Source: an uncultured virus (IMG/VR IMGVR_UViG_3300025617_001525) (taxonomy: Duplodnaviria > Heunggongvirae > Uroviricota > Caudoviricetes). From it: a DNA stretch of 20,000 nt. Location of the stretch: the IMG/VR virus record IMGVR_UViG_3300025617_001525. One strand, given 5' to 3'. Below the pieces are notes generated by a model. It did no database searches and was not told the DNA's origin. It worked only from the letters and a program-made list of their open reading frames with translations. A program made the translations under genes and the position numbers. Of this stretch, positions 2,604-19,625 are shown piece by piece (the stretch's first letter is position 1; the number at the start of each line of letters is the position of its first letter).

Positions 2604-3674
2604 TTATTTTTGTAATTCTACTTCCTCCATTTTTGGAGAGAGTATACTTCCTATAAATGCTGTTATCAGATAAGGGTCCGAGTTAGATCCAGGTCTTCTA
2701 TCTTCTAGATATCCTTTCCATTCTTTGGCGGTGTCTATAGGAACTCTAATAGAAGCCCCTCTATCACTTACCCCCCAGGAGAATTTATCTATACTCTGTG
2801 TCTCGTGATTACCGGTTAATCTTTGGTCGTTATCAGATCCGTAAATTCCAATGGCTTCTGCATGTCTATCTTCAAGATCACTGAGGACCATCTCGAAATA
2901 ATCCTTACCACCGGTCTCCCTCATCCTTTCATCCGAGAAATTAACGTGCATACCAGATCCATTCCAATCTTCTTCTTTGCCCATTGGTTTGGGGTGATAA
3001 TCTACATTAACCCTGTACTTTTCGGCGATACGATTCAAAATAAACCTTGACATCCAAAGGTCGTCTCCAGCATTTTTATTTCCCTTTGAGAATACCTGAT
3101 ATTCCCATTGTCCCAACATAACTTCTGCGTTGGTTCCTGTGATGTTAATACCGCAAGACAAACAAGCGTCCATGTGTTCTTCAACTATCTCCCTTCCAGC
3201 ACTGTAAGGATGACCAACAGAACAATAGTATTTACCCTGTTTTTCTGGAGGATCGAAGTTCTCAAATCCGAGTGGTCTGTTTTCATTTTTATTGAACCAC
3301 CTTAGTACGTACTCTTGCTCAAATCCAAACCATTGGGTTTTTTTATCAATTGAAATGTCAGATCTGGTATTTGTTTTGTGTGGGGTACCGTCAGGATTCA
3401 TAACTTCACACATTACCAAATATGAAAACCCATTTCTCAATGGATCCTGATAAAGCTTTACTGGTTTTAGAATACAGTCTGAGGAACTACCTTCAGCTTG
3501 GTTTGTTGAACTACCATCGAAAGACCATTCTGGTATATCTTTAAGCTTTGGCATTACCAATGCTAGAGGATTTTCTACGTCGGCTGTACCAAAGTCCATT
3601 ACCTTAACTTTAGATCTTAAGTTAGGTTCTGGATCATATCCGTCTAACCAAACGTATTCAAGTTTAATTTTCAT
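2604..3674 (-). CDS. glnII: Glutamine synthetase type II
   Basis: 356 aa (GSII length). Motifs EYVWLDG..LRSK, WSFDGSST.QA, WFGFEQEY, NAEVM.GQWEYQ, DWNGSGMH.NFS, RLTG.HET, RGASIRVP, GYLEDRRP.SN.DPY. Confidence 0.95.
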   Translation of the reverse strand: MKIKLEYVWLDGYDPEPNLRSKVKVMDFGTADVENPLALVMPKLKDIPEWSFDGSSTNQAEGSSSDCILKPVKLYQDPLRNGFSYLVMCEVMNPDGTPHKTNTRSDISIDKKTQWFGFEQEYVLRWFNKNENRPLGFENFDPPEKQGKYYCSVGHPYSAGREIVEEHMDACLSCGINITGTNAEVMLGQWEYQVFSKGNKNAGDDLWMSRFILNRIAEKYRVNVDYHPKPMGKEEDWNGSGMHVNFSDERMRETGGKDYFEMVLSDLEDRHAEAIGIYGSDNDQRLTGNHETQSIDKFSWGVSDRGASIRVPIDTAKEWKGYLEDRRPGSNSDPYLITAFIGSILSPKMEEVELQK

Positions 3675-4645: not shown

Positions 4646-4921
4646 CTATTCTAGTATTGCACGGGTTACGTCATCGATATGGATGACAATATACTCATCT
4701 GATTCTGTAAAATGAACTAAGACTTCCTCGGAGGTCATACTTCCTAAGAGGATTGCTTCTTTCTTCTCGAAGATGAAAGAGTTTCCTAGATGACTTGGTT
4801 CTAACTTGGATCTTCTTATCCATTTACTTTGATTTCTTACGAACTGATCCCCGTAATACTTTCTCATAGAGTCAGTTGGCTCTTTTATTCTCCTCCTTCT
4901 TTTTCCTTTTAAACTTGCCAT
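4646..4921 (-). CDS. Hypothetical protein with a basic N-terminus
   Basis: 91 aa, KGKRRRRIK near the N-terminus, abuts genes on both sides. Confidence 0.65.
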   Translation of the reverse strand: MASLKGKRRRRIKEPTDSMRKYYGDQFVRNQSKWIRRSKLEPSHLGNSFIFEKKEAILLGSMTSEEVLVHFTESDEYIVIHIDDVTRAILE

Positions 4922-5869
4922 TTAATTAAAATATCCTTTTTGTTTTAAACTATCTAAGTGTTGTATGATCTTTTCCAATTCTTGTTCCCTTTTTTCACCA
5001 TGCAGTACTTTAATCAACCTCTTGTCCTTTGGTATTTTATAGAAATCCCCACTTAAGGTATCCCTTTCCACCTCGGTTTCGAAGAAGTGTTTTACTGTTT
5101 CTAACCCGTCGTTAATGTTTATGTAACTCATAGGAAGTCCACCACCTCCATATTTCCATATTAGAACATTCATGGGAGTTTCGTCTTGGAAAGGTGAGTA
5201 ATGATAAACATCGACAACCTTCCACATAACATTTAAGAACTCTTCCAGTATGACAAGGAAGTTCTTACATTCCTTGTTAAATATAAATAGGTTTCCCGTC
5301 CTGTACTCATCCCTTTGTTCTAGGTTAACCTGTAGGAATTGCATCAGTGGCCATTCTAATGTTTTGGTAAGGTCGCATTCCGGCCAGCATCCTTCGAAGG
5401 GGTTTCCTCTCATAACACCATTATCGTCAGGAACCATCACAAATTCATGGGGGCCTTTTGTTGCTAAAGGAACATTTTTAATACCATCAGAATAAGAAAA
5501 TATCTCATCTATATTTGGACAAGCAATGCTATCCCCATCGATATAGCAGGCCTCGTCATACCCCATGTCTATAACTTTCAGACAAGCTTCGCTTTTCCTG
5601 GTCATTACTTGGAAACTTCTCGGATTTCTTCTATTAACATAGAAATTACCATTCGAGGTGTCTTGGAAGTTTTCCCCATCCTCGTGGATCTTATAATCTA
5701 TTCTATGAAATGTAACACCATCTGGCATTTCTAATCCCGAATCAGAAGGGAAATAGTTTATGCAGAATATGTTGATGTCGTAATTAGAATAGAGCTTCAA
5801 ACTTTTCACCAGCCAAAGTGTAAGATAGTGATAATTTTCGGTTGTTATTGAAACATAGGATCTTCTCAT
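4922..5869 (-). CDS. Putative GT-A fold glycosyltransferase (GT8-like)
   Basis: N-terminal Y....L.KSL..YS, DxD motif YIDGD, QDETPMNVL (GT8-type QD..LN) and C-terminal HG.K. Confidence 0.7.
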   Translation of the reverse strand: MRRSYVSITTENYHYLTLWLVKSLKLYSNYDINIFCINYFPSDSGLEMPDGVTFHRIDYKIHEDGENFQDTSNGNFYVNRRNPRSFQVMTRKSEACLKVIDMGYDEACYIDGDSIACPNIDEIFSYSDGIKNVPLATKGPHEFVMVPDDNGVMRGNPFEGCWPECDLTKTLEWPLMQFLQVNLEQRDEYRTGNLFIFNKECKNFLVILEEFLNVMWKVVDVYHYSPFQDETPMNVLIWKYGGGGLPMSYININDGLETVKHFFETEVERDTLSGDFYKIPKDKRLIKVLHGEKREQELEKIIQHLDSLKQKGYFN

Positions 5870-7407
5870 TTCTTTATCTGATATAATGCTATCTCTTTTT
5901 GACTAGAATCGAACACTCTTATTATGTCATTGTTTTGGAAGTTGTTGCTAGAAATCCAATATAACAATGTACGGTCTACGCTTATACTATCCCATTTAAG
6001 TATTTGATCATAACCCCTATACAGAACTAAAGTTATATCACCCAAAGAATCCACAAGTGATTTGTAATATACCCGATCTCCATCTAATTCCCACTTTCCT
6101 ATTTTTCCACCCACGAAGGGTTTAAGCAAAGAGATAATTTCAATCCTTTCATTGGTGCTGTATGATGTCACATGTGCTATAAAATCACCAGGCTCCCATA
6201 GGTTTTTATTTAGGTGAGGGAATGTATCAATCATATAAGGATTCTTTGTGGGCCAGAATCTGTTAAAAAGTTTTTCCTCTACCAAACCAATGCCATCTCT
6301 CCATCTATCTTTTTTAGAAGATATTCTTATCTGCCTCATTTCGTGATCAAACTCATTTATGTCCATCCCTTCGGGCCAATCTGGAGATTCCCATATTTCT
6401 GCCAAGAAATCGAGGGATTCCTGACAATTTTTTATTAATATCTGGGATGACATTATGTTATCCGTGTAAGGACTTCCGGTTAGATTATTATCAGGGGCTC
6501 CTCCTCCTTTGGGGAGTATAATAAACTTATCTTCCTGTATGAAAGACTCTAATTTAATAGAGGGGTTCATAATTAAGCAATCACAGTCAATGAAGAAAAA
6601 CCATTCAGATTCCCCCTTTTCTATAAGTTGCCTAAGGACCTTTATCTTTCCCCATTGAGGATTTCTCCCTTCTAGAAAATCATCGTCTATCCGGAATCCT
6701 ATGTGGTTATATCCATTCAATTGACAATAATCCTTAAAATTACTGTTTATTGTATGATCAGCCATTCTAGAATATCCCTCATCATACATAGATACAACAG
6801 ATATGTTTACACCTCTATCAAAGATAAAATTTTCTAAAATATCTGAGGTCAATTTGTAACCCAATGAGATGAGTCTGTTTTTCAGTTTATTAAAATCCTC
6901 ACTTGCATCATGCGCATAATGACCTTCACAATACTCAAATGCTATCTTATCAGGTAATACTTTTCCATAATCTAGCAATGAGTTTATTATCTCAATATCA
7001 ATACCCTCTAAATCTGTTTTAAATATGCCAATCTCCGTAATTGAATATTCTTCTATAATTTCACCTATAGTAACAGTCCTAACTCGTATCTCCTCATATA
7101 GATGTTGTAGGTTTCTTTCTTCCAACTCTCTTAATACAAATGGGTGTGGAGAACCCAACCTTGAACAGGCTCTTAACCAATTCGGGAGATTATAATCATT
7201 TACCTTTTTTTCGGGTAGGGTGTAAATGATGTCTTCCCCACTAGAGCTTGAAACAACCGCATTTAGCTTCTTTACATTTGCTCTATTTGGTAGTCGATCA
7301 AGATACTCTGGAATAGCTTCTATGCTCAGTCCACTTTCTTCATCCTTGCATGATTGGAGTAGGGTGGTGAAATCACACGTTCCTATTTCTATAAAATCAT
7401 ATCTCAT
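5866..7407 (-). CDS. Fusion of an FkbM-like SAM methyltransferase, a GT34 (GMA12/MNN10)-like glycosyltransferase and an unknown C-terminal domain
   Basis: N-terminal DFIEIGT.DF, SIEAIPEYL and KTDLEG.D are FkbM-like. The central part has YCQLNGY, PQWGKIKVL, FFIDCDCLIMN and WEPGDFIAHV, as in GT34. Confidence 0.72.
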   Translation of the reverse strand: MRYDFIEIGTCDFTTLLQSCKDEESGLSIEAIPEYLDRLPNRANVKKLNAVVSSSSGEDIIYTLPEKKVNDYNLPNWLRACSRLGSPHPFVLRELEERNLQHLYEEIRVRTVTIGEIIEEYSITEIGIFKTDLEGIDIEIINSLLDYGKVLPDKIAFEYCEGHYAHDASEDFNKLKNRLISLGYKLTSDILENFIFDRGVNISVVSMYDEGYSRMADHTINSNFKDYCQLNGYNHIGFRIDDDFLEGRNPQWGKIKVLRQLIEKGESEWFFFIDCDCLIMNPSIKLESFIQEDKFIILPKGGGAPDNNLTGSPYTDNIMSSQILIKNCQESLDFLAEIWESPDWPEGMDINEFDHEMRQIRISSKKDRWRDGIGLVEEKLFNRFWPTKNPYMIDTFPHLNKNLWEPGDFIAHVTSYSTNERIEIISLLKPFVGGKIGKWELDGDRVYYKSLVDSLGDITLVLYRGYDQILKWDSISVDRTLLYWISSNNFQNNDIIRVFDSSQKEIALYQIKK

Positions 7408-8199
7408 CTAGATGTTTTTTTGTTTTATGATTGCCTTTTGGCTGTTAAAACAATGGAAAGAAACTATGTGCATTGCATAGTAGCCCGGAACTACATTTTC
7501 CCAAGACGGGTCTCTCTTTTTCATTTGGTCTATAACCCACATTACCTTCCTGCAAGCAAGGTAAATGTCATCTCTAAAATGTCTCATGATGTCACAAGAT
7601 CTTATGAAATAAGATATGTGTAGAAAATCTCCCCTCCTCATGAAATGATATCCAATAGTACATGGAACTCTTTCATTGTGGTGAGCTCCAGTATCCTCTG
7701 GAAACCAAATGGGAAGAAATGCTTGCCTAGTAAATGGCTCTCTTTCTAAAAGATCTAAGACATCATTTAAATCTCCGTATTCATATCTTATACCCTTTAA
7801 GACCTGCTTGGTTAGTTTGCCAGTGGAGTTATTTATTGGTGCTTTTTTTGGCCAGATTCTTTCGGGGTAAGTGTGGGAGAACTTTTCTTCCTTCTTAAAT
7901 TCGCTATTTTTGTTCTGGTTAAAAGGCCACCATTCATTAGAAGGTGGAGGATTGAGTGGCAATCCACCAACTCTTTCATCTAAATGATCATCTGCCCAGG
8001 GTAGATTTGGTTTTACTTCTTCAACAAGCTCTTCTACAGTGTGTGGAATAAACATTTGGAAAGAGTGGTTCATTACTTCCCACATGTCATCCGGGGATAC
8101 TACACCTTGCCACCTTTCGGTTTTTACGACATATCCATAATTATAAAGTCTTTCTTTTGACCACTCGATTGCTTCTGAAGGCTTGTAAAATGTTTTCAT
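7408..8199 (-). CDS. Thymidylate synthase superfamily enzyme, dCMP hydroxymethylase-like
   Basis: TRQA, catalytic VPC, RSCD and SFHCF motifs. RSCDIMRHFRDD places Asp where ThyA (RSCDVFLGLPFN) has Asn and T4 gp42 has Asp. Confidence 0.8.
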   Translation of the reverse strand: MKTFYKPSEAIEWSKERLYNYGYVVKTERWQGVVSPDDMWEVMNHSFQMFIPHTVEELVEEVKPNLPWADDHLDERVGGLPLNPPPSNEWWPFNQNKNSEFKKEEKFSHTYPERIWPKKAPINNSTGKLTKQVLKGIRYEYGDLNDVLDLLEREPFTRQAFLPIWFPEDTGAHHNERVPCTIGYHFMRRGDFLHISYFIRSCDIMRHFRDDIYLACRKVMWVIDQMKKRDPSWENVVPGYYAMHIVSFHCFNSQKAIIKQKNI

Positions 8200-8255
8200 T
8201 AATTCTGTTATAGATCTCTTTATATTCGTATTTTATTTATGTTTCTCTTTTTTAT

Positions 8256-8795
8256 CTAAACCTCAAAGATTTGGTTTATCTCATTTTTTTTGTGTGGCTC
8301 TATGTTGGTTAATTCACCAAGAGGTTTGATATAGAATTCAGAAACTGATACAGTTTCATAGTGGATAAATCCATTACTGAATATTATCTCCTCCGATAGT
8401 CTCCTTTCCTCAGGATCTAAATATTGAACTGAGATTATCTCGGTTCCCCACCTCTCGGGGGAAAATCCTTTCAAGACACGGGATGGAAATTCTGTTTGTT
8501 TTATTAAGAATATTTTGATCTGAGGAACGTTGGTTTTCTCTAGAAACCCATCTACGGTATTTTCATCATCTTTCTCGCAATCTATTAATTTTGCAAGCCT
8601 CCTAAATATTCTTAACTTGTTGTATTTTTCCTCGTCTGGCTGAAGACATAATATCCTCCAATTTCTATCTTCAAACTCAAAAAGGTGGTTTTCAAAAGAC
8701 CAATCTTCTGAAGCTCCATATTCTAAACCACCATATCTATGTTTTACAGGATCTATTAATTCTATTAGTCTATCACAAATAAGTTTTTCGGACAT
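8256..8795 (-). CDS. Degenerate FkbM-like methyltransferase-fold protein
   Basis: GLEYGASED...FE..NWRILCLQPD resembles the FkbM pattern FVE.GA.DG..N...LE...W.G.LIEP, but the xIDxEG motif is absent. Confidence 0.5.
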   Translation of the reverse strand: MSEKLICDRLIELIDPVKHRYGGLEYGASEDWSFENHLFEFEDRNWRILCLQPDEEKYNKLRIFRRLAKLIDCEKDDENTVDGFLEKTNVPQIKIFLIKQTEFPSRVLKGFSPERWGTEIISVQYLDPEERRLSEEIIFSNGFIHYETVSVSEFYIKPLGELTNIEPHKKNEINQIFEV

Positions 8796-8834
8796 AAAAA
8801 AAGCAAGTTTACCTTTATACAGTAAACTTGCTTT
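8796..8834 (-). terminator. Terminator-like hairpin abutting the next start codon
   Basis: Perfect 13-bp inverted repeat AAAGCAAGTTTAC (8800-8812) / GTAAACTTGCTTT (8822-8834), 9-nt loop, T7 on the minus strand immediately before the ATG at 8795. Confidence 0.75.
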
Positions 8835-8854
8835 ATGTTTTCAGATATTTTTAT

Positions 8855-9439
8855 TTAATTACAAGATTCTATCTCGTAATCTCTAAAAGTAGGCTTGGAT
8901 GGTTTTTCATTTGGAAAATAGTAGCAAGAATGAATCTTTCCGTCGAGATATATTTTCTTCGTGAATCCACTAGGAATTGTTGCCCCTGTCGGAAGTACTT
9001 CAGAATTGATGTAATGGACTGTGATTGTTATAAATACCTCACCTTCATTTGCAAGATCCCTCTCATAAGCTTCAAGTAACCTCCAGTGAATCCTATTCAA
9101 GTCTTGGTGCTGCAGAGCACAGTTTAAGTAAGAAAAGGTTTTCTTTAACATCTCTTTGGTGCAATTGAAAGCTGCTGCCGGTGCCATGTGTCCCTTATCC
9201 CACACATTTGCTTTATAGTCGTTGTTATCTGAGGTGTGGATTGAATCGTTCTTATAGAAATCCATTCCCTTTCTAGATGCGCTACCATCAGGACAAAGTA
9301 CCTTGTATTGTACATTTAGTGGCTGCTCTAAAGCTTCAGAGTAAAGTACTGTGTAGATACCAGCATCAATTCTCAGAGTGTCATTCTGGGAAAAAACTAA
9401 TGTTGGCAAAAACAACAGAAGGAGTAAAAATTTCCTCAT
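8855..9439 (-). CDS. DNA/RNA non-specific endonuclease (NucA/Serratia family) with signal peptide
   Basis: MRKFLLLLLFLPTLVFSQ signal peptide, WDKGHMAPA (DRGH motif), TF.Y.N...Q...LN...W..LE. ATG at 9439 preferred over TTG at 9445. Confidence 0.9.
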   Translation of the reverse strand: MRKFLLLLLFLPTLVFSQNDTLRIDAGIYTVLYSEALEQPLNVQYKVLCPDGSASRKGMDFYKNDSIHTSDNNDYKANVWDKGHMAPAAAFNCTKEMLKKTFSYLNCALQHQDLNRIHWRLLEAYERDLANEGEVFITITVHYINSEVLPTGATIPSGFTKKIYLDGKIHSCYYFPNEKPSKPTFRDYEIESCN

Positions 9440-9475
9440 TCTCAATTTTTTTTCCTTTATATATTATTTCTGAGA

Positions 9476-11131
9476 TTAAGTCTTTCTAATGACTATATTA
9501 TTTATTACAAGAATATGGATTCCATTATTATAAAAACTATTTATGGCATCCGAAGGAGATTCAACCACAGGTTCTCCTCTTCCGTTGAATGATGTATTGA
9601 GTAAAAGAGGAATCCCAGACTTATCATAAAACTTGGAAATTAAGTCGTGATATTTCTCATTCATTTCTCTAGTTACTGATTGATATCTTGAGGTAAAGTC
9701 TATATGGGTTACTGCAGGAATTCTTTCCCTCCACTCTGGCTTTACCTTGGTTGTGATAAGCATATATGGAGAAAAACAATCAAGATCAAATATTTCTTTC
9801 CTGTGTTCCTCTAATACAGATGGAGCGAAAGGTCTATACCACTCCCGGTTTTTTATTTCCGAATTTATGTATCTCTCAGCCCACTTTGAAGATGGGTTGG
9901 CCAGGATAGATCTATTCCCAAGAGCTCTTGGACCCGTTTCACTCCCACCTTGGAACCAAGCTACAACTTTGTTTTCCATTAGTTCATCGCTCACTACATC
10001 CAGAAGATCTTCCCAAATTGGGTATTCTTGGAAAGACAAATTTGATATAGCAGTTCCCCAAAAATCTTTCAATACCTCTTCGTTTGTGTATGTTTTGCCA
10101 AGATATGGTTTCAGATAATTACCTTTGGGTAGATTCTGACCATACCAGGCACACCCCAGTGGTATACCGCTGTCATCAGCTGACGGAACATAATATTTGT
10201 TCTCGAATAGATCTGACTTCTCTATGAGTTCGTTCGAATTACAGTTTAGAAAGGATCCACCAGATACACAAAGATTTTCTGAATTAGTAATCTCTTTTGA
10301 TTTTTCAGTGAAAAACATAAGTAACCTTTCTTGCTCCCTCTGATAAACCCCGGCGGCGTTAGATTTTGTCTGGAAGTCTGAGAGATAGCTAACATCAGGG
10401 TCTATGAAACCATGAGGAATATAGACATCATTTTCCAAAAATTCTACGAAATCCGGGTGTTTTCCAACATATTCGGGATCAGCATATGAGGCAAGACCCA
10501 TCAATTTCCCAGCTTGCCAATTGTTTTTGTCTGCTTCATAAACAAGCTGCATTGCGCCAGTCCCATATAAAATACCAACAGAAACCCCACCACCCTTATA
10601 ACCTTCATCGGATAGTTTAATCCACTTTTTATATTTTTCTTCATACCCACCATCTTTGAAATGATAGATAGTTACCGCTTCTGCCAACCTGACATTAGGT
10701 TCTAACGAATCTGGATCTTTAGTAAACCAATCATTAGCTCTTGAACCCGGTGCTACTTCACTACCAGAAGCATCAACTACTAAAACAGCAGACTCTTCAA
10801 AGCCAGAACTGTAAAAAGTGCTGTAAGCATGTGCTAAATGATGTGGTATAAATTCAAGCTTATTACCTGATATACCTGTTATTTCTTCGAATTGCTTACT
10901 ATAATCATCGGGAAGTTCCGTGGTAGTATAAATGAATCTATCAATGTCGGAAAAGCTAATACCTGCATTCTCCACACAATATCTAATTGAAAGCTCCGGG
11001 AGTTGATATTTATAAGCTCCGTCATTTTTAATTCTGCTTAATCTTTCTTCAGTAATTCCTATCAACACTTCTCCGTCCCTGATGAGGACAGATCCCATGT
11101 CGTGACCAACTGATATTCCCAGTGAAATCAT
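9476..11131 (-). CDS. O-carbamoyltransferase, NodU/CmcH/TobZ family
   Basis: 551 aa. GHD, EERLSRIK, HHLAHA, GKLMGLASY, SGG..LNC..N, WFQG..E.GPRALGNRSILA.P, RPFAPSV, LLNTSFN. Confidence 0.93.
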   Translation of the reverse strand: MISLGISVGHDMGSVLIRDGEVLIGITEERLSRIKNDGAYKYQLPELSIRYCVENAGISFSDIDRFIYTTTELPDDYSKQFEEITGISGNKLEFIPHHLAHAYSTFYSSGFEESAVLVVDASGSEVAPGSRANDWFTKDPDSLEPNVRLAEAVTIYHFKDGGYEEKYKKWIKLSDEGYKGGGVSVGILYGTGAMQLVYEADKNNWQAGKLMGLASYADPEYVGKHPDFVEFLENDVYIPHGFIDPDVSYLSDFQTKSNAAGVYQREQERLLMFFTEKSKEITNSENLCVSGGSFLNCNSNELIEKSDLFENKYYVPSADDSGIPLGCAWYGQNLPKGNYLKPYLGKTYTNEEVLKDFWGTAISNLSFQEYPIWEDLLDVVSDELMENKVVAWFQGGSETGPRALGNRSILANPSSKWAERYINSEIKNREWYRPFAPSVLEEHRKEIFDLDCFSPYMLITTKVKPEWRERIPAVTHIDFTSRYQSVTREMNEKYHDLISKFYDKSGIPLLLNTSFNGRGEPVVESPSDAINSFYNNGIHILVINNIVIRKT

Positions 11132-11135
11132 ATTT

Positions 11136-11393
11136 TTATTTAACTTTTATGCCGTATGTACCTTCAAGCCAAGCCATTTCGACCTCAGCATTTCTCCTGT
11201 CTATTTTTGCTACAGACATAATTGAATTTACACCAAACTCAACCCATTCTAAATAGTCGTTTTTGCTTAGTGAATGTTTATAAAACCAATACGGATCTCT
11301 TTCAGCCCTTTCTCTACTCAGACCAGTGTATAGAAGGTGTCTTTCTTTCAATAAGGATATTACCTTTTCTTGACTTTTGGCGTCTATTTTCAT
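11136..11393 (-). CDS. Hypothetical protein
   Basis: 85-aa ORF tightly packed between mgsA and the carbamoyltransferase. Confidence 0.65.
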   Translation of the reverse strand: MKIDAKSQEKVISLLKERHLLYTGLSRERAERDPYWFYKHSLSKNDYLEWVEFGVNSIMSVAKIDRRNAEVEMAWLEGTYGIKVK

Positions 11394-11406: not shown

Positions 11407-11769
11407 TTAAAATGTTTTAATCAATCTCTTTGCAGTTGAATAGTTTGTCGCTAAAGGGATATTGTGATGATCACATATCCTCATTAACATCTGTACATCA
11501 GGTTCGTGAGGATGTTTCCCCAATGGATCCCTAAAAAAGATTATCAGATCTATTTCATTCTGAGATGTCATTGCAGCAATCTGTGCATCACCCCCATGGG
11601 GACCAGATAACAATTTTTCCACATCCAGTCCTGCCTGTTCAACATGTGTCCCAGTCGTTCCAGTCGCAACCAGTTCCACGTCTTTCCTCTTAAAGAATTC
11701 CAGATTGTGCATAATGAAAGAAACCATGGATGCTTTCTTTCCGTCGTGTGCTATTATCGCTATTTTCAT
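11407..11769 (-). CDS. mgsA: Methylglyoxal synthase
   Basis: IAHD.KK, ATGTTG, SGP.GGD.QI, FF.DPL, PHEPDV..L.R.CD and P.ATN motifs. Confidence 0.95.
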   Translation of the reverse strand: MKIAIIAHDGKKASMVSFIMHNLEFFKRKDVELVATGTTGTHVEQAGLDVEKLLSGPHGGDAQIAAMTSQNEIDLIIFFRDPLGKHPHEPDVQMLMRICDHHNIPLATNYSTAKRLIKTF

Positions 11770-12155
11770 TGTTGTGAATCTCCTCTCCAGACTCTATACG
11801 AGTCGGAATCAAAATGTTCTGTTGAAACCTCATAAACCACTCCGTCCTTCAATGCTTCCAGCTGGTGTGGTTGACCAGGTCTTTGTCTTACTGAATCCCC
11901 CACTTTAAGTACCTGCTCATTAACTTCTGCAGTTTCTGTGTCTATCCATCTGTAAATGAATTCACCCTCCTGAACGTACCAGGTCTCGTCCTTTATCATA
12001 TGGTAATGCATCGAAAATTTCGCACCACTCTTAAAGCAAAGAAGTTTTCCACAATAGAGTTCATTATTCTCGAATATAATTTCGTGTCCCCAACCTTTGG
12101 GAACATTGCAGCTTGGACATTCGACTGCGTTTATAACTTTAGGTTTTTCCATCAT
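11766..12155 (-). CDS. Cupin-domain protein (sugar isomerase-like)
   Basis: PKGWGHE, SMHYH..KDETWYV..G, PG..H and EVST cupin motifs. Confidence 0.8.
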   Translation of the reverse strand: MMEKPKVINAVECPSCNVPKGWGHEIIFENNELYCGKLLCFKSGAKFSMHYHMIKDETWYVQEGEFIYRWIDTETAEVNEQVLKVGDSVRQRPGQPHQLEALKDGVVYEVSTEHFDSDSYRVWRGDSQQ

Positions 12156-12587
12156 CTATTTCGTAATTAAGCTATCTAACATATCCATGTACCTAGGAAG
12201 TATTCTAACGCTAGCCTCTTCATAATCCATAAACTTAGCATCGTTGATTTCTTCAATCTGTAGCATTGACTGTGGAAGTATTTCTTTTTTTAAACCTATT
12301 TCTTCCAGAGAATCTATGTAGCATTCAAAAATATAAACGGTTTTAAAAACCTTTTTACCCCTCGTATAGTGTATAATATGCTTTTTTCCTAATTGGTGTG
12401 GAAATATTTTTATACCTACCTCCTCATATGTTTCTCTACAAGCTGCTTCTACAGCATCCTCTCCTTTTTCTATATGTCCCTTTGGTGGCATATAACTTCC
12501 AAACCACTTGCTGTTCGAGCTATGACAAAGTAGTATTTTGTTGTCACATACTATAGCAATTCCAGAGGACTCTTCTATCTTTCCCAT
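12156..12587 (-). CDS. NUDIX hydrolase
   Basis: Complete Nudix box GHIEKGEDAVEAACRETYEEVG. Confidence 0.92.
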   Translation of the reverse strand: MGKIEESSGIAIVCDNKILLCHSSNSKWFGSYMPPKGHIEKGEDAVEAACRETYEEVGIKIFPHQLGKKHIIHYTRGKKVFKTVYIFECYIDSLEEIGLKKEILPQSMLQIEEINDAKFMDYEEASVRILPRYMDMLDSLITK

Positions 12588-12619
12588 TTCAAATTCTTTT
12601 ACTTTATTTATCTAGGGAA

Positions 12620-13453
12620 TCAAGAATTTGATACCGCTCTGCCCTTCATTTTTTCCCAGTCTTTCTCCGGTCTGACTTCAAGATTAGTTTTCCAACCTCC
12701 CTCGATGGAGTTCATCTTCAAGCCGTTTGATTCCGCAAATTTCAATATAGCATTCACATCTTTCGGAAAGCATGTTCCACCATACCCTAAACTTCCGTCA
12801 GGACCGGGAACATGCAAATGTGAATCTCCGATTCTACCATCAGAAGCAAATCCATTTAAGGCATCTTCCCAATTAACACCTATTTCATTTCCAAGTCTAT
12901 AGAATTCATTCATTATTGAAACCTTTGTAGCAAAGAATGTGTTATTCATGTACTTTGTATACTCTGCTGTCTTACTGTCAGTAAGAATGAAATTTCTATT
13001 CATGAACCTGTCCTCGAAGAGAGATTTTACCCTTTCTGTTAACCTATGATCTCCACCTAAGATTATCCTTGCCTGCGTTAACATATCTAGCTTAGCAGTT
13101 CTTTCAGTTAAGAATTCCGGGGAAAAAATTATCGCAAAATCTGGATATTTGTCTCCCATCAATTCAGTTGTTCCTGGGAGGACAGTTGATTTGATTATGA
13201 ATATCTGATCTACACTTGGAGATATAGTCCCAAAGAAGTTTTCGATGAATGAAAGGTCTTGTGTACCGTCCATCCTCATTGGTGTTGGTAAACAAACAAA
13301 GATAAATTCTTGCTCCAATGTTTCCTCCAAAGTGTGAGTTGCTTTAAGAGGGTCAATATCATATATTCTCACGTCAGCAATGGGAGAAAAAGCAAACGCC
13401 TGCGCTTCACCAACGAACCCGTTTCCTATAATACCTACTTTTTTCTTTTTCAT
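12620..13453 (-). CDS. UDP-glucose/GDP-mannose dehydrogenase family protein, short form
   Basis: GIIGNGFVG, CLPTP, KSTV.PGTT, SPEFL, K...N...A.K and GYGGTCFPKD (catalytic Cys). At 277 aa it lacks the C-terminal domain. Confidence 0.88.
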   Translation of the reverse strand: MKKKKVGIIGNGFVGEAQAFAFSPIADVRIYDIDPLKATHTLEETLEQEFIFVCLPTPMRMDGTQDLSFIENFFGTISPSVDQIFIIKSTVLPGTTELMGDKYPDFAIIFSPEFLTERTAKLDMLTQARIILGGDHRLTERVKSLFEDRFMNRNFILTDSKTAEYTKYMNNTFFATKVSIMNEFYRLGNEIGVNWEDALNGFASDGRIGDSHLHVPGPDGSLGYGGTCFPKDVNAILKFAESNGLKMNSIEGGWKTNLEVRPEKDWEKMKGRAVSNS

Positions 13454-14292
13454 AATAATGGTTTCAATTTTTGTGCCTCCTCTTGGAGGTTCTTTTTATA
13501 GTGTTTTATCCTTTCGTTTATTCCAAATTTTGGAGACCATCCTGGTAAAATTTTTTCTGTATCGGCACAGGTAAAAAATTGATATCCTTCTGGGATAGCT
13601 GAATGGTCAGTAAATGTGTATGGTATATTTAGAATATCCATAAATACCTCAAACCCAATTGGTGTTGTTGTTCCAATATCAAAGGTTCCTGTTGAACCTA
13701 TTTCCATTGCGTGTATGTTTGCGTTCACGATGTCGTCGACATGAATAAAGTCTCTCCTGGGATTTCCTGGAAAAAGTTCCATATACTCTATTGATTTCTC
13801 AATGTGGTATTTTTTAAAAGCCTGATAAGCTACAGAAGCCATCCGACCCTTTCTATCTTCGCCAGGACCAAAAACATTGAAGTACCTTAAAGAAATTGAA
13901 TTCTCATAGGTGTTAACGTATTTCTCTCCAGCATATTTTGACCATGCATACAAGTTAGCTGGCAATTTTCCATTAGTGCCGTAGTTAGCAGCAGAAGAAG
14001 AATAAACTATCCTTTTTCCATATTTATTACAGAGATCACACAACTTCCTTGTAAATTCAAAGTTGAGATGAAGCATGTAATTTACATCCTTTTCCAGTGT
14101 GTCTGAGCAGGCACCCACATGGAAAACACCATCAATACCTTTATCGAATATACTGATAAGGTGAGGTTCGCACTCAGAAGACATAGCATCATCTATTTCA
14201 AATCCAATTACAATATGTCCTTTGGATGTTAGAAGATCCTTGAGTCTTTTACCTATAAACCCCCGATGACCGGTTACTAAATAAGTTGACAT
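13450..14292 (-). CDS. gmhD: NAD-dependent epimerase, ADP-L-glycero-D-manno-heptose 6-epimerase-like
   Basis: TG..GFIG, FHVGACSDT, YSSSAANYG, P.N.YAWSK, LRYFNVFGPGEDRKGRMASVA and RDFIHVDD, typical of RfaD/HldD/GmhD. Confidence 0.82.
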   Translation of the reverse strand: MSTYLVTGHRGFIGKRLKDLLTSKGHIVIGFEIDDAMSSECEPHLISIFDKGIDGVFHVGACSDTLEKDVNYMLHLNFEFTRKLCDLCNKYGKRIVYSSSAANYGTNGKLPANLYAWSKYAGEKYVNTYENSISLRYFNVFGPGEDRKGRMASVAYQAFKKYHIEKSIEYMELFPGNPRRDFIHVDDIVNANIHAMEIGSTGTFDIGTTTPIGFEVFMDILNIPYTFTDHSAIPEGYQFFTCADTEKILPGWSPKFGINERIKHYKKNLQEEAQKLKPLL

Positions 14293-16298: not shown

Positions 16299-17390
16299 TT
16301 AGTTTCCACTATGAATGCTAGAAATGAAATCCGAATCCACTGATTTAAGAAATTCTACATAGAGATTAATGGCGCTTTGAACGTCTTTTTTGTGAGCCAT
16401 CTCAACGGTTGTATGCATATATTTTAAAGGAGTTGCTAATATAGCAGTTGGAATGTTTTCCAAGAAAAATGCCATAGTATCATTTCCATAAGACCCAACT
16501 GTAAGCTGTAGGGGGATGCCATTATCTTTAGCTACTTCTCTAAGCTTAGCATTGATCTTGCGGTGGTTCTGTGCAGTGTATTCAACACATGGCCCCTTCC
16601 CACCTTTGACGTCTCCATCTTTTGCTTTTTCTATTCTAGGTGTGTTTGTATTATGACAAACATCATGAACTAGAGCAAGATCAGCATTGAGCTTTTTTGC
16701 AACCATTTTTGCACCATACAAGCCAACCTCTTCTTGCACTGAATTAACAACTATCAGATTAAATGGGAGATCTATTTTATCTTCACGGATTCTTCTCGCA
16801 ACCTCAGCAATAATATATCCTCCTATTTTATTATCCAGTGATCTTCCTACCCAATAATCTCCAATCTCTCTAAGTTTATCGTTGAACGTCACGAGACACC
16901 CAACTTCTATTTCTGCGGATAATACATCATCCTTGTCTTTCATTCCAACGTCTATCCAAAGATCGTGTTGGTCTGGACCCTCCTCAACATAACTTTTCCT
17001 TGTGTGTATTGCTGGCCATCCAAAAACTCCGGGGATTTTTAAACCTGTATGTGTATGTATAATCACGTCCTTAGAAGGGGCTATCATATTGTCAGATCCT
17101 CCATGTCTCTTGACCCTGATATATCCCTCGTCCTCTATATGAGTTACTATCCAGGCAATTTCATCGCAGTGTGCTTCTATAACAATGTTGGGACTGTTGG
17201 GATTTCTAAGTTTTCCATCTCTTGAATATAATGTTGCAACAGCAGTTCCGTATGGATCCGTTGTAACCTCGTCTACATATTTCTTTATCTCCTGAACCCA
17301 TATTTTTTGTCCTTCAGACTCTTGTGCAACCGGTGCGTATGCATTTAAATATCTGTAGATAAATGGGATTTCTGCAAGTTTATCTTCCAT
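16299..17390 (-). CDS. M42 family (TET/FrvX-like) metallo-aminopeptidase
   Basis: EAHCDEI, GG.D, DLWIDVG, SLDNKIG, VQEEVGL.GA, HDV and P.KYMHT; metal ligands present. Confidence 0.92.
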   Translation of the reverse strand: MEDKLAEIPFIYRYLNAYAPVAQESEGQKIWVQEIKKYVDEVTTDPYGTAVATLYSRDGKLRNPNSPNIVIEAHCDEIAWIVTHIEDEGYIRVKRHGGSDNMIAPSKDVIIHTHTGLKIPGVFGWPAIHTRKSYVEEGPDQHDLWIDVGMKDKDDVLSAEIEVGCLVTFNDKLREIGDYWVGRSLDNKIGGYIIAEVARRIREDKIDLPFNLIVVNSVQEEVGLYGAKMVAKKLNADLALVHDVCHNTNTPRIEKAKDGDVKGGKGPCVEYTAQNHRKINAKLREVAKDNGIPLQLTVGSYGNDTMAFFLENIPTAILATPLKYMHTTVEMAHKKDVQSAINLYVEFLKSVDSDFISSIHSGN

Positions 17391-17404: not shown

Positions 17405-18199
17405 CTATAATGTTTTGGTTTCTGTATCTGGCATTATACCGGAAAGGTATTCTTTTGGTCCAAGAATTATTTTTTCACAATTTTTCTGTGATGACATTTC
17501 ATCAATCCAACCATCCCAATATTCATCGAGGAGTTTTATAAAAGACTCTGGGTTACCGCGGAGCTTAAATCTATTAATATATTCTTCCTTAATAGATCTC
17601 TCAGGGTAAACGAGAACAAATGGTATCTCGTGATAATCCAAAGCATCTCTAAGTGTTTTGTGGGAAGATACTAGAATAAAATCAACTTCAGGATCCTCTA
17701 TTTTTTCCTTAATGTGCTGAATATAATTTTCCGGGAAGTTTTCCTTATCAAAATCAGAGCTATCTAGGTCAATTACATTAAGTCCGGAAATCTCGCTATA
17801 GGTAGATTTTCCAGTCCCCGGAAAAGCTGAATAAACTTTTATCTTAAACTCATTTTTGTTACCTTCGTCATCATAAAGTCCCATTTCTTGGTCCAACCTC
17901 ATCATTTCGGTAAGAGCTTTTTCCCTCAGATTCTTTTCTTCAATTTCTCCGTCTCTTGCTATTCTAACAGCATTCAAAAGGATTTCACGAAGATTGTTGA
18001 ATTCTATTTCGGTGTGTGGAGAGTTATAGCATTCAAATTCAATCCTATCGACAGAATTATCCCGAAGACCTACGACATGATAGTCATCCATCTTCTTTTG
18101 CAAATCTTCAAAAGCTATTTCCTCTATTTTTTTGGAATCAATGGATCCAAGAGGAAACCTAACTACCAATATTGGTTTTGTTATTTTCTTTTTTGACAT
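17405..18199 (-). CDS. Composite protein with an unknown N-terminal part and a C-terminal P-loop (NMP-kinase-like) domain
   Basis: Walker A SAFPGTGKST starts near residue 125, followed by DLDSSDF, FP.NYI.HIK, LVSSH and Y..R...RGN. Confidence 0.7.
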   Translation of the reverse strand: MSKKKITKPILVVRFPLGSIDSKKIEEIAFEDLQKKMDDYHVVGLRDNSVDRIEFECYNSPHTEIEFNNLREILLNAVRIARDGEIEEKNLREKALTEMMRLDQEMGLYDDEGNKNEFKIKVYSAFPGTGKSTYSEISGLNVIDLDSSDFDKENFPENYIQHIKEKIEDPEVDFILVSSHKTLRDALDYHEIPFVLVYPERSIKEEYINRFKLRGNPESFIKLLDEYWDGWIDEMSSQKNCEKIILGPKEYLSGIMPDTETKTL

Positions 18200-18812: not shown

Positions 18813-19625
18813 CTAAAAACTCTCTTTAACAATTTCTGGTATTTCAATTAAACCACTTGATTCAGCCAATGTCGATTTGAAATGATTTACAAGCTCTTCT
18901 TCCGAAAAAATCTTATTGTGTGGTGCAAATGCTGACTGCCATGGATTAATAGAAAGATTTTGGTATCCTTTTTTCTTTTTGTTGTGGAGATTTAAATCGA
19001 AATAGTGCAAATGTAAAAGATACAGACCATCTTCGTGATTTGGTTTTTCAGTTTCGTTTATTCTGTGTGGATTTCCTTCTTCATCCTCGAAATAAATATT
19101 ATCATATTTACATTCGTGAAATCCAGGGTTCCAACCCATAGGTACTTTGGAAATTAGAGTCTTATCATATCCCCGGTCTTTTAGCATATATTTTCTCTGC
19201 AATAGAATTGGTTTATTAAGATCTATAGGATCCTCCTCATCAATATTATGATAAACATTATATCCATGGGTCGTAAAAAATCTTTTCTCAGATCCACTAA
19301 TGGAAGCTAGAAAATCACCTAGAGTTCTTCCATCTTTGGGAACTATAAATTCATCAACATCCGTGTATATTACATATTCATACATTTCAATAAGTTCTTC
19401 GTGCAAAGAATTCACCCGATTTGCTATTGAAGCATAATCTAAAGAGTACTCAAGGTGTAGAGGAATTATGTTACACTCCAGATTTTCTGTACTACCGTCT
19501 ATAGAATCATTATCCAAAACATAAATATCCTTCATCGGGATGTGCTTTGAATAATATCCAATCCACAGTGGTAAAAAGTGAGATTCATTTTTGACACATG
19601 TTATAATAGCGAATTCTCCTTTCAC
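18813..19625 (-). CDS. Glycosyltransferase family 2-like protein
   Basis: TCVKNE..FLP.WI.YY, YVLDNDSIDGS, YTDVDEF, GFH and LLHLH motifs; GTG start. Confidence 0.85.
   Translation of the reverse strand: MKGEFAIITCVKNESHFLPLWIGYYSKHIPMKDIYVLDNDSIDGSTENLECNIIPLHLEYSLDYASIANRVNSLHEELIEMYEYVIYTDVDEFIVPKDGRTLGDFLASISGSEKRFFTTHGYNVYHNIDEEDPIDLNKPILLQRKYMLKDRGYDKTLISKVPMGWNPGFHECKYDNIYFEDEEGNPHRINETEKPNHEDGLYLLHLHYFDLNLHNKKKKGYQNLSINPWQSAFAPHNKIFSEEELVNHFKSTLAESSGLIEIPEIVKESF

What the first reader, a model, noticed from the sequence alone, without database searches (positions are those of the whole stretch)
4922..11131. Candidate cytosine hypermodification pathway: dCMP-type TS homologue with glycosyl-, methyl- and carbamoyltransferases
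Seen: the TS-family gene (7408..8199) directly abuts an FkbM-GT34 fusion, which overlaps a GT8-like gene. A second FkbM-like gene and an intact NodU/CmcH carbamoyltransferase lie just upstream. Known: T4 gp42-type enzymes make hm5dCMP that is later glycosylated, and phage NodU-like enzymes linked to TS-like genes have been reported to convert 5hmC to 5-carbamoyloxymethylcytosine. Inference: this phage may build a modified cytosine that is carbamoylated and/or carries a methylated sugar, a combination I do not recognise as described. Alternative: the GT, FkbM and NodU genes decorate virion or host-surface glycans and are merely neighbours.
Basis: partly seen in the sequence, partly recalled or inferred. 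Interest (0 to 1): 0.8.

Follow-up and report, generated by a model that had tools for sequence, protein, structure and literature searches.

The report
Cytosine-type enzyme beside swappable sugar genes
A large uncultured phage carries an enzyme that probably alters cytosine for its DNA, but the sugar-, methyl- and carbamoyl-transfer genes next to it come and go independently and most likely decorate surface sugars, not DNA.

Summary
The genes are real and intact, but they are not one pathway. The TS homologue (7408-8199) has the dCMP-type Asp at E. coli position 177 and its own signature (R143, H173). It is a core gene of a jumbo-phage clade that also carries a normal ThyA and a T4 gp56-like dCTPase/dUTPase, so a replaced cytosine is likely; the product is untested. 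The neighbours are accessory. The carbamoyltransferase is missing from 9 of 9 near-complete relatives. It keeps the TobZ residues and groups with TS-free phage enzymes, away from the TS-linked clade. The GT-A gene is missing from 8 of 8 near-complete relatives, and its family occurs in other jumbo phages without this TS, beside collagen-like fibre genes. The scan reached nearly the same reading on another genome (e1-5610757). What stays open is the chemistry of this TS branch.

The parts
4646..4921 (-). Conserved small ORF (91 aa), the usual downstream neighbour of the TS gene in the clade; marks the end of the insertion site
   Evidence: follows TS within 400 bp in 38 of 56 clusters where it was seen
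4922..5869 (-). GT-A fold glycosyltransferase (GT8/GT6-like), DxD-type motif D111-G-D113; accessory
   Evidence: pLDDT 94; LgtC Z 16.5, rmsd 3.5, 226 aligned
5866..7407 (-). FkbM methyltransferase (N-terminal) fused to GT34 glycosyltransferase; accessory, the FkbM half is often absent
7408..8199 (-). Thymidylate-synthase-fold enzyme of dCMP type: C180 (=Ec146), R177 (=143), T181 (=147), D203 (=169), H207 (=173), D211 (=177); core gene
8256..8795 (-). Divergent, possibly FkbM-derived protein (179 aa); found only in the closest relatives
8800..8834 (-). Conserved hairpin with U-tail (terminator-like) between the nuclease gene and the 8256-TS-GT block
   Evidence: z -4.5; present in 4 of 4 relatives folded, z -2.7 to -6.2
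8855..9445 (-).
9476..11131 (-). Intact NodU/CmcH/TobZ-type O-carbamoyltransferase with W392/G405/R407 (=TobZ W408/G421/R423); single-gene insertion between the 85-aa ORF and the nuclease
11766..14292 (-). Cupin, Nudix, truncated UDP-glucose dehydrogenase and ADP-heptose-epimerase-like genes: sugar-nucleotide supply genes of the same variable region
18813..19625 (-). Further GT2-like glycosyltransferase, with no match in the 142 TS loci

Best explanation
Two unrelated systems sit side by side. (A) The TS-fold gene is a core, pre-replicative cytosine-modifying enzyme. It binds dCMP through Asp211, activates C5 through Cys180 and most likely transfers a folate-derived one-carbon unit, giving 5-methyl- or 5-hydroxymethyl-dCMP. 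A gp56-like pyrophosphatase elsewhere in the genome removes dCTP and a normal ThyA makes dTMP, so the phage DNA carries a replaced cytosine. Shown: residues, core status, co-occurring genes in relatives. Inferred: activity, product, incorporation into DNA. (B) The sites on both sides of the TS gene are insertion hotspots for glycan-tailoring genes. The GT-A and GT34 enzymes build an oligosaccharide, FkbM O-methylates it and the carbamoyltransferase O-carbamoylates it. The likeliest acceptor is a virion fibre or capsid protein, or a host surface glycan. Shown: patchy presence, kinship with TS-free glycan islands. Inferred: the acceptor.
For: TS: C146, R143, D177 in 54 of 55 aligned sequences, the 55th being a partner-type paralogue; dN 0.035 against dS 1.1 versus L001. 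Canonical Asn177 ThyA in 4 of 5 relatives, the fifth a 42% fragment. Pyrophosphatase in 18 of 19 relatives, 8 of 8 near-complete, in 0 of 3 complete jumbo phages lacking this TS, and like T4-type dCTPase/dUTPase. dCMP deaminase in 5 of 5. In small phages the same TS family lies in a cassette with a dUTPase/MazG gene, a kinase-type gene and PolA in 5 of 5 annotated records, with a deaminase annotated in 3 of 5. Island: carbamoyltransferase in 2 of 21 records, 0 of 9 near-complete; near TS in 4 of 43 clusters with 3.5 kb or more upstream; absent at this site in L002 (86% TS identity). GT-A family in 8 of 19, 0 of 8 near-complete. The same interval holds unrelated GT2, GT11, DegT, GNAT, CmcI and FkbM genes in other relatives. 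44 of 46 carbamoyltransferases with Thr at TobZ 423 have a TS in the fetched flank; of 85 with Arg (window included), besides the window only five loci of this clade, fetched through the TS, do. The window enzyme groups (SH-aLRT 100) with 8 TS-free loci, and joining it to the Thr clade is rejected (p-AU 2.6e-18). GT-A relatives occur in 16 records with no TS of this family, 4 of them near-complete, fused to FkbM, GT4 and GT9 domains and beside collagen-like genes.
Against: No nucleoside data for any phage with this TS branch were found. The TS-fold partner gene that precedes this TS in small phages is absent from 4 of 4 near-complete jumbo relatives (positive control found), so the jumbo enzyme may work differently or not at all. 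No dedicated dNMP kinase was found. gp56-like proteins are annotated dUTPase in some hits. Within the clade, all 8 full-length GT-A copies lie just downstream of the TS gene, and GT8-like enzymes do occur in DNA pathways (GT14I, GT43I; 10.1101/2023.12.21.572611, passages). Collagen hits in the nearest relatives are weak or absent (G001, G003 E about 2e-5, G002 none; all fragments). The sequence of the one characterised 5hmC carbamoyltransferase was not available; Xp15, Effie and BF503P2 served as proxies.
Confidence: 0.66

Rival explanations
1. The TS makes 5hm-dCMP clade-wide, and in one sub-lineage the GT-A gene (with or without GT34) glycosylates that base after replication; the carbamoyltransferase is still unrelated.
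For: All 8 full-length copies of the GT-A gene in the clade lie between TS and the 91-aa ORF. GT8-like enzymes resembling the PBCV-1 capsid GT act in 5hmC pathways (passages). The GT34 domain's best PDB hit is that same PBCV-1 protein, but only at E 0.3.
Against: The GT label needs 3 changes on the TS tree. The family thrives without this TS, in loci of which 9 of 11 tested have GATC under 0.4 of expectation. No TAGT match in 5 records. Position 143 is Arg, not the Asp/Glu typical of hydroxymethylases (PMC13326640, passage).
Confidence: 0.12
2. One reading: TS, GTs, FkbM and carbamoyltransferase together make a carbamoylated and/or methyl-sugar cytosine.
For: Physical closeness. The carbamoyltransferase sits at the same site in 4 close relatives (L001, L105, L109, L150). 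The chemistry exists (PMC8670742, sections 11-12).
Against: Wrong carbamoyltransferase clade and residues. Absent from all near-complete relatives. FkbM, GT34 and carbamoyltransferase vary independently among the nearest relatives: L109 has the carbamoyltransferase without GT34, L002 the reverse, L150 lacks the FkbM half. A nuclease gene and a hairpin lie between. The eLife paper reports GT-flanked carbamoyltransferases in unmodified contigs.
Confidence: 0.05
3. The TS homologue does not change the DNA. It feeds dTTP synthesis (5m-dCMP, then deamination), acts on RNA or a free nucleotide, or has another role now that its partner is lost; the neighbours are a glycan island as in the best explanation.
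For: Partner and dedicated kinase not found. Deaminase present; the deamination route is proposed for Xp12-like phages (10.1101/2024.12.05.627091, passages).
Against: A canonical ThyA makes a bypass redundant. The gp56-like gene tracks with this TS. 0 of 34 clade loci strongly avoid any 4-base palindrome, against 5 of 8 and 21 of 40 control loci, with no Dam or C5-methylase match in 19 records. That signal is weak: the loci are kin, and 19 of 39 TS-linked control loci also avoid sites.
Confidence: 0.17

Closest known systems
T4 hydroxymethylcytosine pathway (gp42, gp56, gp1, td, alpha/beta-glucosyltransferases)
   Same: Asp177 TS-fold enzyme plus a separate canonical TS plus a gp56-like pyrophosphatase
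   Different: Family profile hits gp42 (1b49) only at E 5.5e-4, below ordinary TS and MilA; Arg143/His173; no gp1-like kinase found; no AGT match (no positive control)
5hmC carbamoyltransferase of MetaGPA (PMC8670742); proxies Xanthomonas phage Xp15, Acinetobacter phage Effie, Bacteroides phage BF503P2
   Same: Same Pfam domains, and a D177 TS within a few kb
   Different: 23-26% identity to the proxies; they have V/I, C/G, T at TobZ 408/421/423 where the window has W, G, R; separate clade; their TS is a different, gp42-closer branch
Deaminase-linked N177D TS homologues, Xp12/PaMx74 5mC pathway (10.1101/2024.12.05.627091)
   Same: Small-phage members of this TS family sit beside a deaminase, a pyrophosphatase and PolA; 5 of 7 such TS tested in that paper made 5mdCMP
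   Different: Whether any tested enzyme belongs to this Arg143 branch is unknown (bioRxiv supplements closed); in the jumbo clade the deaminase is more than 100 kb away
Nol/NodU-like carbamoyltransferases and glycan islands of cyanophages and pelagiphages (PHROG1601)
   Same: Best cultured hits, 30-33% identity; HTVC008M has GT, methyltransferase, carbamoyltransferase and UDP-glucose dehydrogenase together, as here
   Different: The window's nearest kin (about 50%) are uncultured large phages; I found no tested substrate for any (0 papers)
5-hydroxy-dCMP synthases of RB69, DLP3, RL38JI (PMC13326640)
   Same: TS fold, Asp177
   Different: Diagnostic D169N is absent: Asp in 55 of 55

Membership tests
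dCMP-accepting TS homologue | Catalytic Cys146 and Asp at position 177 | tested here: met
   C180, D211
dCMP-accepting TS homologue | Makes a C5-modified dCMP | not testable with these tools
   needs in vivo or in vitro assay
T4 gp42-type hydroxymethylase | Asp/Glu at position 143 | tested here: not met
   Arg in 54 of 55; rule from PMC13326640
T4 gp42-type hydroxymethylase | Second canonical TS and gp56-like dCTPase in the genome | tested here: met
   in relatives only; the window's own genome is not held
T4 gp42-type hydroxymethylase | Phage dNMP kinase | tested here: inconclusive
   only adenylate-kinase-like and other P-loop genes
5hodCMP synthase | D169N | tested here: not met
   rule
5hmC carbamoyltransferase | Falls in the TS-linked clade | tested here: not met
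   (clade defined by proxies)
5hmC carbamoyltransferase | Differs from TobZ at W408/G421/R423 | tested here: not met
   window keeps all three. The paper's text names the positions, not the substituted residues; the figure was not seen
5hmC carbamoyltransferase | Conserved co-occurrence with TS | tested here: not met
5hmC carbamoyltransferase | Activity on 5hmdC | not testable with these tools
   needs enzyme assay
TobZ/NodU/CmcH O-carbamoyltransferase | Both domains full length, His/Asp motifs aligned with TobZ | tested here: met
GT8 (4922-5869) | GT-A fold with DxD | tested here: met
GT8 (4922-5869) | Pfam GT8 match over cut-off | tested here: inconclusive
   9 of 76 family members hit, best E 0.0016; window protein none; Foldseek ranks GT6 first
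Known DNA glycosyltransferases (TAGT, AGT) | Family match in window or relatives | tested here: inconclusive
   no match; no control passed the cut-off
FkbM (8256-8795) | Full PF05050 domain | tested here: inconclusive

The most novel reading that the evidence does not exclude
The Arg143/His173/Asp177 branch of the TS fold, conserved from cultured small siphophages to a widespread jumbo clade, does not make 5mC or 5hmC. It traps a different, probably anionic nucleophile at the C5 methylene and so makes an undescribed cytosine. In the jumbo clade it does so without the TS-fold partner that small phages need, and the adjacent GT-A gene may add a sugar in one sub-lineage.
Probability: 0.17. Interest if true: 0.75.

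Novelty: new variant of a known kind. Interest (0 to 1): 0.34.

Why it matters
The proposed five-gene pathway does not hold, so the headline novelty falls away. What remains is testable: a TS branch with its own active-site signature, carried by more than 90 cultured phage records with at least 80% coverage and by a jumbo clade, with no product that I could find in print. Cultured members (Gordonia, Mycobacterium, Serratia, Streptomyces phages) make a nucleoside analysis easy. The Arg/Thr difference at TobZ 423 gives a simple way to sort phage carbamoyltransferases into TS-linked and other types.

Tried and rejected
No whole genome is held for the window, so genome-wide tests use relatives. 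Single-sequence fold of the GT failed (pLDDT 33); the alignment fold replaced it. The MetaGPA supplement 3 shows only an enrichment table in the part held (part 1 of 400 read), so the characterised enzyme's sequence was not obtained; bioRxiv supplements are closed and may hold the tested TS sequences. Literature searches for a tested member of this TS branch found nothing: (listings); term searches in PMC11269248 and PMC7775415 gave 0 hits; PMC6893835 and PMC12884076 proved irrelevant. Palindrome avoidance is kept as weak support only. The P-loop ORF 17405-18199 was considered as the missing kinase but is in only 3 of 21 records. Promoter scan was below chance (14 against 24.7). RNA run X13 has short contigs over several genes, but contigs do not show transcription. 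PDB searches for 8256-8795 and for the pyrophosphatase gave nothing useful. No complex was predicted. The host was not determined. Locus clustering used ungapped identity and is rough.
Full report
Setting. The window is a piece of a large phage: all long ORFs lie on the minus strand, with one tRNA-Arg. Relatives with the same gene order reach 434 kb. Runs holding 0.2 or more of the sampled words are labelled marine, seawater or estuary metagenomes; two are flagged as possible sources. No genome is held for the window, so whole-genome statements refer to relatives.

Observation. The four main genes are present and intact at the stated places. The TS gene abuts the FkbM-GT34 fusion, which overlaps the GT gene by 4 bp. 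The GT gene has no library hit, but a model from a 76-sequence alignment (pLDDT 94) matches GT-A enzymes: LgtC Z 16.5, rmsd 3.5 over 226 residues; Foldseek ranks GT6 first. The second FkbM-like gene is only weakly supported. Between it and the carbamoyltransferase lie a nuclease gene and a hairpin with a U-tail, kept in 4 of 4 relatives folded.

The TS gene. In E. coli ThyA numbering it has C146, T147, D169, H173, D177 and R143. In 55 aligned sequences C146, R143 and D177 are present in 54; the exception is a partner-type paralogue. The register is confirmed against the N229D mutant structure. Asp177 marks dCMP use (PMC8670742 section 11; PMC13326640 passages and section 28). By the latter paper, Asp/Glu143 goes with hydroxymethylation, Leu with methylation and Asn169 with hydroxylation; Arg143 fits none, so the product cannot be read from the sequence. 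Selection is strong (dN 0.035, dS 1.1). Relatives also carry a canonical Asn177 ThyA (4 of 5 records), a dCMP deaminase (5 of 5) and a gp56-like pyrophosphatase beside the polymerase and ribonucleotide reductase genes (18 of 19). That gene was not found in 3 of 3 complete jumbo phages that lack this TS. In cultured small phages the same TS family lies in a cassette of kinase-type gene, dUTPase/MazG, an unnamed gene, TS and PolA (5 of 5 records opened; deaminase annotated in 3). The unnamed gene keeps a Cys and an Arg-x-x-Glu/Tyr pattern suggestive of a TS fold (my reading, not folded) and was not found in 4 of 4 near-complete jumbo genomes. No dedicated kinase was found. The clade does not avoid 4-base palindromes (0 of 34 loci under 0.4 of expectation, against 5 of 8 and 21 of 40 controls) and gave no Dam or C5-methylase match in 19 records. 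This fits protected DNA but is weak: the loci are kin and longer than the controls, and 19 of 39 TS-linked control loci and 7 of 20 small-phage loci do avoid sites.

Linkage. Of 142 TS loci, 122 were assigned to the jumbo clade, giving 78 clusters after leaving out L102, which matches the window. The 91-aa ORF follows TS within 400 bp in 38 of the 56 clusters where it was seen; a GT34 gene was seen in 6 and the GT-A gene in 11. The full FkbM-GT34 fusion is in L001/L103, L002/L106 and, cut by the contig end, L113. L150 keeps the first seven residues of the fusion (MKYDFVE) and then runs into the GT34 half. Other relatives fill the interval with up to 9 kb of GT2, GT11, DegT, GNAT, CmcI, PglD-like and FkbM genes. 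A carbamoyltransferase was seen in 4 of 43 clusters with 3.5 kb or more upstream, one of them a 29% paralogue 7.8 kb away; L105, just under the cut, has it too. Genome-wide it is in 2 of 21 records and 0 of 9 near-complete ones; the GT-A family is in 8 of 19 and 0 of 8.

The carbamoyltransferase. PMC8670742 (abstract, passages, sections 11 and 12, part 1 of supplement 3) says the enzymes of modified contigs form their own clade, co-occur with TS, PRA-PH and dCMP deaminase, and differ most at TobZ W408, G421 and R423; those of unmodified contigs lie by glycosyltransferases. Counting along the 3ven alignment gives W414, G427 and R429, six above those numbers, which I take as a tag offset. The window keeps W, G, R. 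Three cultured small phages with a neighbouring D177 TS have V/I, C/G, T. Among 130 full-length enzymes from 136 loci plus the window, 44 of 46 with Thr423 have a TS in the fetched flank; of 85 with Arg423 only the window and five loci of its own clade do. Position 408 varies in both groups. On a tree of 73 of these 131 rows, the Thr clade is one branch (SH-aLRT 100) and the window groups (100) with eight TS-free loci from other large phages; one of these lies in a GT cluster beside a collagen-like gene with an S74 chaperone domain. A 21-row AU test rejects joining the two (p 2.6e-18; the group was named after the first tree was seen). The characterised enzyme itself could not be placed.

The glycosyltransferases. 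Of 33 viral loci with the GT-A family, 9 have this TS nearby and 24 do not. Sixteen records from the 24 gave no match to the TS profile, four of them near-complete (no positive control in that call, but the single-protein search found its two controls). Those four have one TS match each; three show Asn177 and the fourth was not read. There the domain is fused to FkbM, GT4 and GT9 domains, and in L329, L333 and L346 lies near collagen-like genes. Against this reading: within the clade the GT-A gene always lies downstream of TS, and GT8-like enzymes are known in 5hmC pathways (10.1101/2023.12.21.572611, passages). Collagen matches occur in 11 of 12 clade records, over the cut-off in 5, but are weak in the nearest fragments.

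Verdict. A probable modified-cytosine enzyme flanked by a swappable glycan island (0.66). Earlier scan notes on other genomes reached similar readings; I read them after forming this view, and they supplied the leads to the dCTPase, the partner gene and the deaminase paper, which I then checked. No paper on the product of this TS branch turned up in searches, and none joining phage carbamoyltransferase, FkbM and glycosyltransferase terms in one search; the library lacks most subscription journals.

Noticed in passing
L063:4877-5938, L064:5141-5980, L065:5192-6001, L066:5214-6047, L067:5045-5935, L041:5853-6794: Unnamed gene directly upstream of this TS in small phages, with a conserved Cys and Arg-x-x-Glu/Tyr; possibly a TS-fold partner forming a heterodimer. 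Not found in four near-complete jumbo relatives.
   Followed up: partly
window 8800-8834 (-): Hairpin kept in four relatives with changed pairs and a TATAAA-like word in the loop region; terminator or a regulated promoter.
   Followed up: partly
L150:10793-11755: GT34 gene that keeps the first seven residues of the FkbM fusion, suggesting a clean loss of the methyltransferase domain.
   Followed up: partly
L093:1456-3075; L227:6668-8260: A second, distant carbamoyltransferase in the nearest relative about 17 kb away; tandem carbamoyltransferase pairs beside ClpP-like genes in L227, L228, L229 and L232.
   Followed up: partly
L062:9434-11400: The TS gene is interrupted next to the catalytic Cys by an insert of about 1.1 kb (intron- or intein-like).
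   Followed up: no
L079:7577-8383 and 10457-11137; L193, L207, L225 and kin: Small phages with the TS-linked carbamoyltransferase carry two D177 TS genes, one with Asn at 169 in several loci (hydroxylase signature): a possible carbamoylated 5-hydroxycytosine.
   Followed up: no
window 2604-3674, 11407-11769, 16299-17390: Host-like metabolic genes: glutamine synthetase, methylglyoxal-synthase-like protein, M42 aminopeptidase.
   Followed up: no
window 17405-18199; L019:7663-8121: P-loop protein (PHROG4182) that overlaps the TS start in L019; present in only 3 of 21 records.
   Followed up: partly
window 12620-13453: UDP-glucose dehydrogenase-like gene of 277 aa without a match to the C-terminal domain.
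   Followed up: no
L060:4060-6469: A member of this TS family followed by a C5-methylase-like and an asparagine-synthetase-like ORF (read by eye).
   Followed up: no
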